From: Convolutriloba macropyga
Taxonomy: Eukaryota
Assembly: GCF_964194025.1 (NCBI RefSeq)
Contig: NC_134482.1
Location: forward strand, 46,562,001 to 46,626,000
DNA length: 64,000 nt
Direction: 5' to 3'
A model generated the notes under the pieces. That model did not search any database and had not been told where the DNA came from. It saw only the letters and a list, made by a program, of their open reading frames with translations. A program made the translations under genes and the position numbers. Below are positions 57,355 through 64,000 of this stretch, piece by piece. The number at the start of each line of letters is the position of its first letter. Positions within the stretch are counted from its first letter, which is position 1.

Positions 57355-57357
57355 TTT

Positions 57358-57456
57358 GGAGATCCGTTCGGCAGAGGGGGATCACTGATCCCTTAGGGGA
57401 GATCCTTCGAGATCCTTTCGGCAGGGTGGGATCACTGACACCTTAGTGGAGATCTT
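57358..57456. repeat. GGAGATCC...GGGATCACTGA tandem repeats, probably Polinton subterminal repeats
   Basis: About two ~50-bp imperfect units right at the gap edge. Confidence 0.55.
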
Positions 57457-57663
57457 TTATGTTAAGAAAGTGGTAATTGCGCTACATGTACTTGTCTGGC
57501 GGCTTATTGTTGGTATATATATTTCGCGAGTGTGAGGGAAGATTCTTCATGTTAGCAGTATTTTCGCTACATGTGTTTGTGTGAATATACTTTGGTTGGG
57601 AGTGGTCCATCCTAGGAGGTACGATTAGGATTCGTTTTGCCAGAACAATATTTGTAGAAAAGG

Positions 57664-58080
57664 ATGGCAAAAACGATAGCAACCATTGATCTAAAAAATA
57701 GTCATGAAATTTATCTGGAGATAAAGAACAATTATCCAAAGTACGGTGAAAGGTTTCTGTATTTTCTAGCTGCTTGCCAATACCTTGATCCTGATATTGA
57801 TTTGGAGGCAACATTGAAGCTGAGACCGTATGGTGGTCTAATTGGAATTGATAATTCGTCGCTGGACAACTACTTCAAATCGTTCAAAATACTTCGACTT
57901 CATGCAATACTCCACGATGCATCGGGTTTTATAGCAGAGTACAGTCGTAAAGGCCCTGGATACTCCTATGTGTTACCTTGTCCAATTCCGAACGAGTATT
58001 TGGGTCACATCATGGGATTGGCTTTTTGTTTGTTTGTGAAGACGTTCAAAAACAATTTGTTCACTTTGTTGGAATGCTGA
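57664..58080 (+). CDS. Polinton accessory protein with HxxxHD and GPGY motifs (possible PLA2-like fold)
   Basis: 138-aa ORF with PYGGLIG..HAILHDASG..GPGYSY; its stop overlaps the next ATG. Confidence 0.6.
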   Translation: MAKTIATIDLKNSHEIYLEIKNNYPKYGERFLYFLAACQYLDPDIDLEATLKLRPYGGLIGIDNSSLDNYFKSFKILRLHAILHDASGFIAEYSRKGPGYSYVLPCPIPNEYLGHIMGLAFCLFVKTFKNNLFTLLEC

Positions 58081-58667
58081 AACAAGAAATAGTGATATTG
58101 GATTTTGAAGGTTTTCGTTACAAGAAAACTGGTTTTATAATAAAAGAGCTATCGCTTTGTTCGAATAATTATTCGGACACAATTCTTTTTCTTCCGCCAG
58201 TTTCCTACAACTCACTTTCCGCTAGTGACAGGAGATCTCATAAGTGGGTTACTAAATTTTTACATGGTTTGTCTTGGAACAGCGGTACTTATCCTTATTG
58301 GTTTCTATCACAAATTTTTGACGCCATTAAACTTCGGTTTCCGTTAGGGAAATTTTATGCCAAAGGGAAAGAGAAAACAGAATCACTCCAAACTCTCTTG
58401 CAGAAAGAGGTAATAGATTTGGAAACTCTTCTATGTCCGAAAGTTGAAGATATTAAATCGCCAATTGATAGTATTACTTGTGCTCTGCACTCTTTCTGCC
58501 TACCGGAAAAGCAAAGGAGGAAACATTGTGCTAAAAGGAAAGCACAGCTGTATTTCTATTGGATCTCTCTGCCATCCAATGAGCCGTCGAGTGGAGAAGG
58601 CAGCTCCGTCCGTTCTTCAAGTGAATTTATCTCCAAGTTTGACAGTATGCAGTTACATAACGAATGA
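58074..58667 (+). CDS. DEDD/DnaQ-like nuclease with C-terminal Cys/His cluster
   Basis: VILDFEGF..FIIKELS..HGLSWNSG..KGKEK..CALH..HCA. Confidence 0.7.
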   Translation: MLKQEIVILDFEGFRYKKTGFIIKELSLCSNNYSDTILFLPPVSYNSLSASDRRSHKWVTKFLHGLSWNSGTYPYWFLSQIFDAIKLRFPLGKFYAKGKEKTESLQTLLQKEVIDLETLLCPKVEDIKSPIDSITCALHSFCLPEKQRRKHCAKRKAQLYFYWISLPSNEPSSGEGSSVRSSSEFISKFDSMQLHNE

Positions 58668-61141: not shown

Positions 61142-62063
61142 CGATGTGCGGAAACTTGACAAGCTCTATTTAAACGGTCCTGCGTCATTTGGAAGCGCAA
61201 AAAGATTGCAAAATTTGAGTAAATTATCAATGAAGAAAATTAAAATGTATCTGGAAACGAAACCATCTTTCAACAAATACCGTTCACGTCGCCTCAGTTT
61301 TCCAAGGCTTAAAGTTGTTGTTAACGACATAAATGAGATCTGGTCCGTAGATCTAGCATATGTTGATAAACTTGCAAAATACAACGGTGGTGTAAAATAT
61401 CTGCTTGTGGCTGTTGACTGTTTGTCAAGATATCTCAGGGTTGAGCCACTGAAAACAAAATATGCCACAGAGACAGCACAGGTCTTCAAAAAGATGATCA
61501 AGCATAAACAACCTGAGAAAGTTTGGGTTGATGATGGTACAGAGTTCCTAGGTGCCTTCAAAGCCCTATGCACTGAACGCGGAATTCATTTATACAGTAC
61601 GTTCAGTGAGAAAAAGTCTGCTTTTGCGGAAAAAAATATACGCTCTTTGAAAAATATAATCTACAGATATTTAGAAGAAAAGTGGACTTATTCATATCTA
61701 GACAAATTGGATGCGTTTGTTAAAACAATCAATTCTAGAGTAAATCGAACGATAAAGCTCGCTCCGAACAATGTCACGAAGAAAGACGTTCCAAGGCTTG
61801 TGTCCTTGACTGCAAACAAAGCAAATTCTCAGAAACCCAAATTCTATATTGGTGATTTTGTGCGCATAGTGAAAAAAGAGCAGACCTTCGGGAAGGGCTA
61901 CAAACAGTCGTTTACTGACGAGGTATTTGAAATCGCATCTATCCCGACATTGCATCCTCCCACGTATTCTCTTATTGATGAGGATAAAGAAGTTATCCAG
62001 GGTAAATTCTATCAACCCGAACTTCAACTAGTACGAGAGTCTCCTCTAAAATATGGGAAGTAA
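60981..62063 (+). CDS. int: Retroviral-type (rve) DDE integrase
   Basis: WSVDLAY, LVAVDCLSRY, VWVDDGTEF, KSAFAEK; C-terminal IGDFVRI..KGYKQSFTDEVF. Confidence 0.95.
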   Translation: MKRKLHPNNRSKKQKKSGKEDDLNQRKNTKSQESMKVKKRQRKRRVEKTGISIDDVRKLDKLYLNGPASFGSAKRLQNLSKLSMKKIKMYLETKPSFNKYRSRRLSFPRLKVVVNDINEIWSVDLAYVDKLAKYNGGVKYLLVAVDCLSRYLRVEPLKTKYATETAQVFKKMIKHKQPEKVWVDDGTEFLGAFKALCTERGIHLYSTFSEKKSAFAEKNIRSLKNIIYRYLEEKWTYSYLDKLDAFVKTINSRVNRTIKLAPNNVTKKDVPRLVSLTANKANSQKPKFYIGDFVRIVKKEQTFGKGYKQSFTDEVFEIASIPTLHPPTYSLIDEDKEVIQGKFYQPELQLVRESPLKYGK

Positions 62064-62940
62064 ACGATTCGAAGACGAGTTTACGGTACATGTTATTTCT
62101 AGCGCTTCGATGGAGATCTTTGATCAAAACACACTAGCTTCGTTCAGAAATTTTTTCAACGATGAAATTCAACTATCTGGCGACTGGAGGGTAGCTCTAA
62201 GCGAAATTATTTTTCCGACCAAAATTCAGCATGTGGTGAATGGAGATTTGATAGCATATAGTCTTAAGGGTTACAAGGACTCACAAAGAATCTCATCGGA
62301 TGCCAATGTCATTTCTCGACCTTACAGTGGAGAAAAATTCTCTTTCATGACTGGAAACTTTGACACTGTTGCTCAACTTTTATTTACTATCAAGCGAACA
62401 GTTGGACTACCTAATTTTTCGTTTCGTGAAATCAAGAGTACTGGAAAATACGAAATACTTTTTAGTAAAAATGAGGTAATCACTTTTCCTGGTGAAGAAA
62501 TACCCAGTATTGTGGGTTTTACAGGAATTCCAGATAAATATGGTGTACATATTGGGTACAAAATGAATACAGCTACATCAAATAAATTAATGAAGAGCGA
62601 TGAGACAAAAGCTTATTATGGAGAATTCCCTGCTGATCTGTGCGCGGGAAAGCACATAATATTCATTTACACAAACATTATCGAGTATCAATATGTTGGT
62701 GATGCTAAGGCGCCTTTATTACGTGTCATTGATTCAAAACAACGTCTGAAAAACGGTAGCGTGTGTGAACTTGAACCAACACATAGAATAGTCTTTTCAA
62801 ATTTGGACTATAAAAAACTACTTTCAAATATGATTCAATCAATTTCCATAGAGTTACGTACCGAAACAGGTCAATTAGTCCCCTTTTCAGGGACCGGTAA
62901 AGTAATATTGACGTTACAGTTCAAAAATTTGGTGATTAAA
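62053..62940 (+). CDS. Minor capsid protein (penton)
   Basis: SSASMEIFDQNTLASFRN..LSGDWRVALSEI..YTNIIEYQYVGDAKAPLLRVI..ISIELRTETGQLVPF. The natural stop is probably out of frame because of a lost A. Confidence 0.88.
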
Positions 62941-62943
62941 ACA

Positions 62944-63417
62944 ATGGAATCGTACTATACCAATCAAGCATCATCGTTGCCTTATTTTTCTGGACACTAT
63001 AGACAAAGAGGAAGTGGCTTTGGAGCTTTAGCTAGTGGCATAGGTCGAATCGCCTTACCGCTTGCACGAAAATTCCTTCTACCCGCAGCAAAACGTGTCG
63101 GAAAAGAACTTCTCTTGCAAAATGTGCCAGAGTTAGTGGATGTTGTCAGCAAGAAAAAATCCGCAAAGCAAGCGTTGAAAAACACTATTTCGAATACAGT
63201 TAAAAAGCAAACAGGAGGCTCATTAGCACTGCGAATGAGACGACAAAACCGAATGAATCGGAGACGGTCTAAACGATCTGGCTCAAAAGCTAGAAAAAGT
63301 ACTAATATGAGAAAGACAGTCATTTCAAAAAATAAACAGCCAAAAAGAAGTCGGTCGGATTTCTTCGCTAGAGTTAAAGATGATCGGTTATATGTTACCA
63401 ACAGAGGCAACACATAG
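62944..63417 (+). CDS. Basic core / membrane-lytic-like virion protein
   Basis: MESYY..QRGSGFGALASGIGRIALPL..QTGG plus an Arg/Lys-rich tail; lies between penton and MCP. Confidence 0.8.
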   Translation: MESYYTNQASSLPYFSGHYRQRGSGFGALASGIGRIALPLARKFLLPAAKRVGKELLLQNVPELVDVVSKKKSAKQALKNTISNTVKKQTGGSLALRMRRQNRMNRRRSKRSGSKARKSTNMRKTVISKNKQPKRSRSDFFARVKDDRLYVTNRGNT

Positions 63418-64000
63418 TTCCCTGGATCTGTTTGAAAAACCAGCGCTTCTTGTAACTTTTGATGGTAGTTTTTGTCAAAAAGTAGGACCAGTGTACAGCC
63501 CTAACGGACCCATGCTCGAATTTGAGGTGGCTGGAGACAGAAATAATTTTATTGACCTACAAAAAATTTTCCAGGAAATCAAATGCAAGATAGTTCAAGG
63601 TTCTGAAGCCGATTTGAAATATGACGCTAGAGCTGCAGCAGACGTCACCAAAACAGACGCCCCTTACTTCTGCAATAATGTTTTACATTCGCTCTTTTCT
63701 GACTGTACAGTATCTGCCAACGGATTAAAAATTTCAAATGCAAATGGAAATTATGCTCACAAAAGTTTCATTGAAACTGAATTTTCTCATAACAAAGATG
63801 CTAAAGCAACTTGGTTGGCATGTCAAGGTTACTCATACGAAGAGAACCCCGGGGCAATTCCGGCAGCTGAAGTTAACAGACGAAAAGCTTTGGTTAGACA
63901 ATCTGCCGAATGTACTTTTTATGGAAAAGTAGCTGTAGATTTTTTTAATTGTGATCGACATCTTTTGAGTGGTGTGACGCTGCGAATTTTTTTCGACGAT
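63380..64000 (+). CDS. Major capsid protein (double jelly-roll hexon), 5' part; absent from the ORF track
   Basis: Open to the window end: HSSLDLFEKP..GPMLEFEVAG..FIDL..NNVLHSLFS..NYAHKSFIET..DFFNCDRHLLSGVTL. Confidence 0.92.
   Translation, partial: MIGYMLPTEATHSSLDLFEKPALLVTFDGSFCQKVGPVYSPNGPMLEFEVAGDRNNFIDLQKIFQEIKCKIVQGSEADLKYDARAAADVTKTDAPYFCNNVLHSLFSDCTVSANGLKISNANGNYAHKSFIETEFSHNKDAKATWLACQGYSYEENPGAIPAAEVNRRKALVRQSAECTFYGKVAVDFFNCDRHLLSGVTLRIFFDD

What the first reader, a model, noticed from the sequence alone, without database searches (positions are those of the whole stretch)
57355..64000. Near-intact endogenous Polinton/adintovirus with a virion module
Seen: ATPase, integrase, penton, basic core-like protein and MCP in Maverick-like order, mostly open frames, plus four poorly characterised left-end genes. 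Known: such elements also encode pPolB and an adenain-like protease, expected right of the window, and have TIRs with 6-bp TSDs. Inference: a recently integrated and probably uncatalogued virus lineage of this host.
Basis: partly seen in the sequence, partly recalled or inferred. Interest (0 to 1): 0.7.

Follow-up and report, generated by a model that had tools for sequence, protein, structure and literature searches.

The report
Decayed Maverick with introns, Rep-like gene
This is a broken, roughly 17-kb copy of a recently spreading virus-like jumping element (Maverick/Polinton) in what is likely an acoel worm genome; the kind of element is well known, but its DNA polymerase gene is split by two likely host-spliced introns, and it carries a small gene predicted to fold like the origin-binding proteins of rolling-circle viruses.

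Summary
The element is real, but it is not near-intact. The window holds the left 6.6 kb of a ~17.2-kb Maverick/Polinton; protease, pPolB and the right inverted repeat lie just beyond it. ATPase, penton/core junction, capsid, protease, Rep-like gene and polymerase are broken here. The subfamily is young and integrated: 105 exact terminal motifs, siblings 0.6-2.2% apart, 6-bp duplications in 8 of 10 siblings. Jelly-roll folds of capsid and penton were not firmly shown. Two extras: (1) pPolB has two GT-AG introns. Each site holds an unrelated intron in some sister families and none in others, whose sequence is collinear with the spliced junction. No RNA was available. (2) A conserved 240-aa gene has an N-terminal domain predicted to fold like HUH Rep/origin-binding domains, with likely metal ligands kept but no conserved tyrosine. 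This scan noted intron-split pPolB in other genomes and a Rep-like gene in another Maverick of this genome. Verdict: new variant of a known kind; modest interest.

The parts
57355..57516 (+). Visible part of the left terminal inverted repeat, with an internal ~52-bp unit duplicated; the terminus itself lies in the N stretch to the left
   Evidence: Inverted match to the right end, 88.5% over 122 bp and 94% over 53 bp; sibling repeats ~155 bp right, ~206 bp left
57664..58080 (+). ORF1, 138 aa, open; function not shown (a phospholipase-like look is recalled, not confirmed)
   Evidence: Atlas: best rows are hypothetical clusters; 75-80% identical in 5 of 7 sister-family copies
58074..58667 (+). 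ORF2, 197 aa, open; DEDD-nuclease-like motif by eye, probably the gene labelled MAEL in adintoviruses
58579..59095 (+). ORF3 (109 aa) and ORF4 (93 aa), open, unassigned
59144..59425 (+). ORF5, 93 aa, two hydrophobic stretches, likely a small membrane protein
   Evidence: 70-80% identical in 5 of 7 sister-family copies
59422..60154 (+). A32-like packaging ATPase, frameshifted near 59605
60066..61141 (+). Two unassigned conserved ORFs (99 aa and 258 aa)
60981..62063 (+). Retroviral-type integrase, open, with D, D and E motifs present
   Evidence: Pfam rve E 7.5e-9; motifs
62053..62940 (+). Penton-position ORF (295 aa in siblings); here run into the next ORF by a frameshift near 62930
   Evidence: no family hit; identity rests on position and size
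62944..63417 (+). Basic core-like ORF (148 aa in siblings) with an amphipathic start and an Arg/Lys-rich tail
   Evidence: resemblance to the adintovirus 'Cupiennin' gene class is recalled, not tested
63380..64000 (+). 5' part of the major capsid gene (436 aa in siblings); frameshift near 63985 and a second one beyond the window near L001:1320; gene ends at L001:1682
   Evidence: weak jelly-roll support
64000..64000 (.). Marker for the rest of the element, beyond the window (L001 base 1 = window 63001; L002 starts 9000 further on). Adenain protease L001:1682-2092 (+, premature stop near its end). Rep-like gene L001:2159-2880 (-, frameshift near 2575). Possible PC4-like gene L001:2886-3248 (-). 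Ser/Thr/Pro-rich gene L001:4150-4917 (+). pPolB from L001:6897 to L002:2178 (+) in three exons, with intron 1 at L001:7877-7978 (102 nt, phase 2) and intron 2 at L002:1564-1648 (85 nt, phase 1), and premature stops in exon 2. Right inverted repeat L002:2378-2533 ending in (ACT)2, then a (TA)n flank.

Best explanation
This is a decayed, integrated ~17-kb copy of a young Maverick/Polinton subfamily whose polymerase gene is likely spliced by the host and whose small Rep-like protein likely serves as a non-cutting origin-binding factor. Shown: terminal inverted repeats ending in (AGT)2/(ACT)2 in siblings; 6-bp target duplications in siblings, centred on a pyrimidine-purine step; the same gene order in sister families; broken frames in this copy. 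Inferred: an active relative was transcribed in the host nucleus; the spliceosome removed two introns from the pPolB message; pPolB copied the excised linear genome by protein priming from the ends; the HUH-fold protein bound the ends or origin and the PC4-like protein coated the displaced strand; the capsid module packaged progeny; the integrase inserted them. This copy can no longer do that by itself.
For: Integrase, ATPase and protease Pfam hits. pPolB motifs DANNLY, KxxNxxFG and YSDTDS. Duplications in 8 of 10 siblings. 39 of 39 right ends fetched carry the terminal motif with different flanks; YR at target positions 3-4 in 33 of 39 against 0.23 in the flanks. Introns: 10 of 10 siblings; same position and phase in sister families whose polymerases are 46-49% identical to this one, with unrelated interiors of about 97-171 nt and GT-AG ends; relatives lacking an intron are collinear with the spliced junction. 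HUH fold: the top 14 of 50 VIA rows are all Rep/origin-binding domains (Z 3.8-5.3); most named top BFVD rows are parvovirus NS1 or CRESS Rep (prob up to 0.99, E about 0.01). H42+H54+H56 in 42 of 47 homologues and D/E44 in 44 of 47 resemble RepB His39/Asp42/His55/His57 (PMC5030251, passages). No tyrosine is conserved where Rep motif III should be (best column 14 of 47).
Against: Splicing is inferred from DNA comparison only. The HUH model is middling (mean pLDDT 52; N-domain blocks 53-85), Z scores are under the tool's trust level of 8, and no Foldseek hit reached E 0.001. Three cysteines are as conserved as the histidines (43, 43, 45 of 47), which fits a zinc site as well. PC4 assignment is weak (1 of 47 homologues, E 0.011). 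The capsid fold rests on a pLDDT-35 model; the penton was not folded. Virions are not shown.
Confidence: 0.62

Rival explanations
1. Same element, but the Rep-like protein is an active nickase that uses a displaced tyrosine or another nucleophile to nick at the termini, helping excision or starting replication alongside pPolB.
For: Full candidate metal site kept across 47 homologues at 38-97% identity. Lys72 is invariant and Tyr12 is present in 39 of 47.
Against: No conserved motif-III tyrosine. No terminal hairpin in this subfamily (z 0.60 and 0.62). Insertions show integrase-type 6-bp duplications and precise ends. All 10 distant copies examined carry pPolB as well.
Confidence: 0.15
2. The 240-aa protein is not an HUH relative but a zinc-binding protein with a similar alpha/beta arrangement.
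For: Three conserved Cys plus three His; low Z scores; unrelated alpha/beta proteins follow closely in the list (Z up to 3.7); no Pfam or PDB sequence hit.
Against: HUH domains fill ranks 1-14 in VIA and dominate both Foldseek lists; the H-x-H motif sits at the start of a strand in the model.
Confidence: 0.15
3. The copy is really near-intact and the breaks are assembly errors.
For: Several frameshifts lie in homopolymer runs.
Against: Other breaks are multi-base indels or point stops. Private changes across copies include 10 stop codons, with pN/pS 0.56, as expected of decay after insertion. None of 10 siblings passed all 19 coding units.
Confidence: 0.05
4. Mis-scaffolded contaminant virus.
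For: None found.
Against: It lies inside a 48.9-Mb contig; at least 150 capsid matches across the large contigs; paired ends about 17.2 kb apart at many loci; target duplications.
Confidence: 0.01

Closest known systems
Vertebrate Mavericks (Barreat and Katzourakis 2021, PMC8097293; passages read)
   Same: (AGT)2//(ACT)2 ends, 6-bp duplications, integrase, ATPase, protease, capsid genes and pPolB; most copies degraded.
   Different: That paper saw no introns in intact elements and a median of eight copies per genome. Here pPolB has two introns, one subfamily alone has over 50 copies, and there is a Rep-like gene.
Adintoviruses, probably Beta class (Starrett et al. 2021, PMC8502044; sections 3.1 and 3.2 read, supplement searched)
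   Same: Animal element with adenain, rve integrase, FtsK-like ATPase, hexon/penton-position genes, and a divergent PolB that does not hit pfam03175.
   Different: No HUH, NS1 or Rep label in the stored supplement text, which is cut. Class not tested by phylogeny. No free linear form shown.
Nematode Polintons with an HNH insert in pPolB (Jeong et al. 2023, PMC10748475; passages)
   Same: Nuclease domain inside pPolB (Endonuclease_7 E 2.8e-5); capsid the most conserved gene; hints of module exchange between families.
   Different: Their screen needed pPolB ORFs of at least 900 aa. The longest exon here gives 873 aa from ATG, so this subfamily would likely have been filtered out. Relationship to pPolB1 or pPolB2 not tested.
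HUH Rep / origin-binding domains (pMV158 RepB, circovirus and nanovirus Rep, parvovirus NS1, SV40 T and papillomavirus E1 origin-binding domains)
   Same: Predicted fold; H-x-H plus an upstream His and acidic residue.
   Different: No helicase domain in the 240-aa protein, no conserved motif-III tyrosine, three extra conserved cysteines; it sits beside a protein-primed polymerase.
Mriyavirus-like and Zora PLVs with HUH genes (bioRxiv 10.64898/2026.06.19.733378; passages)
   Same: Small dsDNA viruses of the same broad group that carry an HUH gene, some with an rve integrase.
   Different: Those have NCLDV-like capsid modules and are proposed to use rolling-circle replication; the passages do not place HUH in pPolB-bearing animal Mavericks.

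Membership tests
Maverick/Polinton | Protein-primed family B polymerase | tested here: met
   Polymerase motifs present in this subfamily and in sister families; no PF03175 hit; broken in this copy
Maverick/Polinton | Retroviral-type integrase | tested here: met
   Pfam rve E 7.5e-9, above cut-off
Maverick/Polinton | A32-like packaging ATPase | tested here: met
   Pox_A32 E 1e-5 for a sibling's open gene; frameshifted here
Maverick/Polinton | Adenain-like protease | tested here: met
   Peptidase_C5 E 1e-6, above cut-off
Maverick/Polinton | Double jelly-roll major capsid protein | tested here: inconclusive
   Among 50 homologues, Capsid_N in 3 and DJR-like_dom in 1. A pLDDT-35 model gives an asfarvirus-like MCP as its highest-probability BFVD row (0.96, rank 3) and PBCV-1, ASFV, PRD1, mavirus and Sputnik capsids at Z 3.7-4.9 among unrelated beta proteins
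Maverick/Polinton | Single jelly-roll penton | tested here: inconclusive
   No family hit; not folded; position and size only
Maverick/Polinton | Terminal inverted repeats with (AGT)2//(ACT)2 ends | tested here: met
   Right end of this copy; both ends in 9 of 10 siblings
Maverick/Polinton | 6-bp target-site duplication | tested here: met
   8 of 10 siblings, two of them in simple repeats; not readable for this copy
Maverick/Polinton | Intronless genes (as described for vertebrate elements; descriptive rather than defining) | tested here: not met
   Two conserved GT-AG introns in pPolB
Adintovirus (Beta class) | Divergent OTU-PolB clustering with Beta references | tested here: inconclusive
   No pfam03175 hit fits Beta; no reference set was available for a tree
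Adintovirus (Beta class) | Free linear genome or virions | not testable with these tools
   Only contig-type runs were listed
HUH Rep endonuclease | Rep/origin-binding fold | tested here: inconclusive
   Ranks 1-14 are HUH-fold domains but Z is at most 5.3 (rmsd 3.3, 82 aligned)
HUH Rep endonuclease | H-U-H metal motif | tested here: met
   H54 in 44 and H56 in 45 of 47
HUH Rep endonuclease | Conserved catalytic tyrosine (motif III) | tested here: not met
   Best column 14 of 47; any Tyr at positions 72-95 in 26 of 47

The most novel reading that the evidence does not exclude
A radiation of animal Mavericks that keeps, next to a spliced protein-primed polymerase, a stand-alone HUH Rep-derived protein that binds, and perhaps nicks, the element's ends. 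That would be a hybrid of rolling-circle and protein-primed initiation and could supply the missing excision step of the Maverick life cycle.
Probability: 0.2. Interest if true: 0.75.

Novelty: new variant of a known kind. Interest (0 to 1): 0.4.

Why it matters
How Mavericks leave the chromosome and start replication is, to my recall, not established. A conserved Rep-fold protein in every family examined is a concrete, single-gene candidate that can be tested in vitro. The polymerase introns, present or absent at fixed sites in sister families of one genome, suggest that intron-blind screens with ORF-length filters undercount these elements, and offer a natural system for intron gain and loss in a DNA virus. 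The insertion itself is an ordinary decayed copy.

Tried and rejected
No RNA holder was listed for the element. The four runs laid cover coding and non-coding parts alike and showed no joint at intron 1 among the 15 rows shown, with 96 not shown; this says nothing about expression. Exact-match laying over the two capsid breaks listed no contig bridging them, so assembly error could not be tested directly. Single-sequence fold of the capsid failed (pLDDT 35). PDB sequence searches with capsid, Rep-like, PC4-like and polymerase queries gave nothing useful. The Atlas gave no usable hit for the Rep-like protein, and its best rows for ORF1 were hypothetical clusters. IMG/VR scans found no relative of the polymerase exon or the Rep-like family. 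The metagenome scan gave 1 locus of 595 candidates, which looks like a bacterial Y1 transposase (recalled label) and was selected by an H-x-H pattern, so it is circular and not counted. A terminal hairpin like that of note e1-9909988 is absent. No conserved ORF or long shared sequence was found in the 1.7-2.1-kb spacer before pPolB in 6 families. Literature searches with zero hits: Maverick+Polinton+acoel; Convolutriloba macropyga+genome+transposable; F54H12.2; Polinton+origin-binding domain+endonuclease domain+Rep. Polinton+HUH+Maverick listed 16 papers, of which 2 were opened as passages. Intron searches listed 3 and 3 papers, 1 opened. Kapitonov and Jurka 2006 was not held; bioRxiv supplements are closed and Repbase was not available, so earlier mention of multi-exon POLB genes is not excluded. 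I recall such Repbase annotations but could not check them.
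Full report
Observation. Window 57355-64000 holds a dense gene cluster on the + strand: five small ORFs, an ATPase, two unassigned ORFs, an integrase, a penton-sized ORF, a basic ORF and the start of a capsid-sized ORF. The integrase passes Pfam rve (E 7.5e-9). The ATPase hits Pox_A32 weakly as a fragment and above cut-off in an open sibling. The neighbouring genome stretches continue with an adenain protease (E 1e-6), two minus-strand genes, a Ser/Thr/Pro-rich gene, a protein-primed polymerase and a right inverted repeat ending in (ACT)2. The element is about 17.2 kb, judged from sibling end-to-end distances. Its left terminus lies in the N stretch, so its own duplication is unreadable.

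State of this copy. It is not near-intact. Compared with nine close siblings it has frameshifts in the ATPase, at the penton/core junction, twice in the capsid and in the Rep-like gene, and premature stops in the protease and polymerase exon 2. By a single-frame coverage test, 5 of 19 coding units fail here, and the 10 siblings fail 3 to 19 each (the sibling with 19 is probably the more distant, partly deleted copy that misses the identity threshold). This copy carries 2.1% private substitutions against 0.3-1.4% in nine siblings, which are 0.6-2.2% apart; pooled private codon changes give pN/pS 0.56 with 10 stops. The siblings were chosen from the best hits, so they lean towards similarity. 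Some frameshifts lie in homopolymers and could be assembly errors; the available runs could not test this.

Family. All 150 scored capsid matches in the genome are 88-100% identical (4565 first-look candidates). The exact 22-base terminal motif occurs 105 times, control 0, and 74 of 150 listed matches to the Rep-like gene rank above a drop to about 50-60% identity. The subfamily therefore has roughly 50-75 copies. Ten siblings are collinear over the whole length. Nine have both ends; eight have a perfect 6-bp duplication, one has inverted flanks and one lacks the left end. All 39 right ends fetched (39 of the 40 hits) have different flanks, with a YR step at target positions 3-4 in 33 of 39 against 0.23 in the flanks. 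This is integrase-type insertion, not contamination. The only homologues with an organism name are labelled Convolutriloba macropyga, so the host is likely this acoel. Mavericks make up 4.5% of another acoel genome (PMC6451197, passages).

Capsid genes. The capsid has 5638 relatives at E up to 0.001. Of 50 aligned members, 3 hit Capsid_N and 1 hits DJR-like_dom. A poor single-sequence model returns double jelly-roll capsids among its structural neighbours, with the longest alignments but low Z. The penton was not folded. Context (size, order, protease next door) makes both assignments very likely, but that is inference.

Polymerase introns. The polymerase is interrupted at the same two places in all 10 siblings by 102-nt and 85-nt stretches with GT-AG ends (one acceptor changed). 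Ten more distant copies from about six families, with polymerases 46-49% identical to this one (8 of the 10 compared), give a natural control. Intron 1 is absent from 9 of 10, whose sequence reads straight through, residue for residue with the spliced junction; the tenth has an unrelated GT-AG intron at the same site and phase. Intron 2 is present at the same site and phase in 9 of 10, with interiors of about 97-156 nt that differ between families (read), and absent from the tenth. Conserved splice signals around unrelated interiors are what functional spliceosomal introns look like. Splicing itself is inferred, not seen in RNA. Vertebrate Mavericks are described as intronless (PMC8097293, passages); one large screen needed pPolB ORFs of 900 aa or more (PMC10748475, passages), while the longest exon here gives 873 aa from ATG. 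Introner insertions in dinoflagellate Maverick-like elements are published (PMC11957031, passages), and this scan has noted intron-split pPolB genes in several other genomes.

Rep-like gene. The minus-strand 240-aa gene lies after the protease in this subfamily and upstream of pPolB in all 10 distant copies, which were picked by this gene. It has 106 homologues and no Pfam or PDB sequence match. A model from 47 sequences has a moderately confident N-terminal domain (blocks of pLDDT 53-85) and a poorly predicted rest. Its 14 best structural neighbours among 48,161 chains are all HUH Rep or origin-binding domains (Z 3.8-5.3); Foldseek agrees without reaching E 0.001. H42, H54 and H56 occur together in 42 of 47 sequences and an acidic residue at 44 in 44 of 47, close to the RepB ligands His39, Asp42, His55 and His57 (PMC5030251, passages). 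No tyrosine is conserved where the catalytic one should be, and three cysteines are conserved too. The termini do not fold into hairpins. The most economical reading is a non-cutting origin-binding protein, like the SV40 and papillomavirus domains in the same hit list. An active nickase and an unrelated zinc-binding fold are the rivals. I found the motif and fold before reading note e1-9909988, which reports a similar gene in another Maverick of this genome. The searches named under Tried and rejected found no paper placing HUH in pPolB-bearing animal Mavericks; HUH is reported for Mriyavirus-like PLVs (passages). PMC11161782, PMC11131425 and PMC11296320 were read as passages only and held no such mention.

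How it likely works. Shown: integration with precise ends and 6-bp duplications, a recent burst, decay of this copy. Inferred from Maverick biology and the anatomy above: nuclear transcription and splicing by the host; protein-primed copying from the ends, helped by the Rep-fold protein and a possible PC4-like single-strand binder (weak support); packaging by the ATPase into a jelly-roll capsid matured by the protease; re-insertion by the integrase. Virions and free genomes are not shown.

Verdict. A real Maverick/Polinton, correctly recognised but overstated as near-intact. It is a member of a known class. The likely spliced polymerase and the predicted Rep-fold accessory gene make it a new variant. 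Interest 0.4.

Noticed in passing
L051-L078 and sibling right ends: Target sites read N-A-Y-R-(T/A)-N: A at position 2 in 27 of 39, pyrimidine at 3 in 35 of 39, purine at 4 in 37 of 39. This fits insertions into (TA)n tracts, including this copy's right flank.
   Followed up: partly
L014/L015 (G000:C1 near 68.99-69.00 Mb): One sibling has no duplication; its two flanks are inverted copies of each other over several hundred bases, with a second terminus-like motif 349 bp further out.
   Followed up: partly
L010/L011 and L020/L021: Two of ten siblings sit about 19 bp apart in what looks like the same host repeat; the flank comparison showed no further case.
   Followed up: partly
L030/L045 family: Closest sister family in the left module (ATPase 91%, capsid 94%) but not in the polymerase (exon 1 31%, exon 2 46%); it has intron 1 but not intron 2. 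This suggests module exchange between families.
   Followed up: partly
L001:4917-6897: All six sister families checked keep a 1.7-2.1-kb stretch without conserved ORFs before pPolB; it could hold a spliced leader as noted for other genomes (e1-7884181).
   Followed up: partly
L003:8185-9732: Gag-protease ORF of an LTR retrotransposon about 15 kb right of the element (Pfam gag-asp_proteas E 2e-9).
   Followed up: no
G000 genome-wide: Thousands of first-look candidates for the capsid (4565) and Rep-like gene (3660) point to a very large Maverick load across many families; these are not copy numbers.
   Followed up: no
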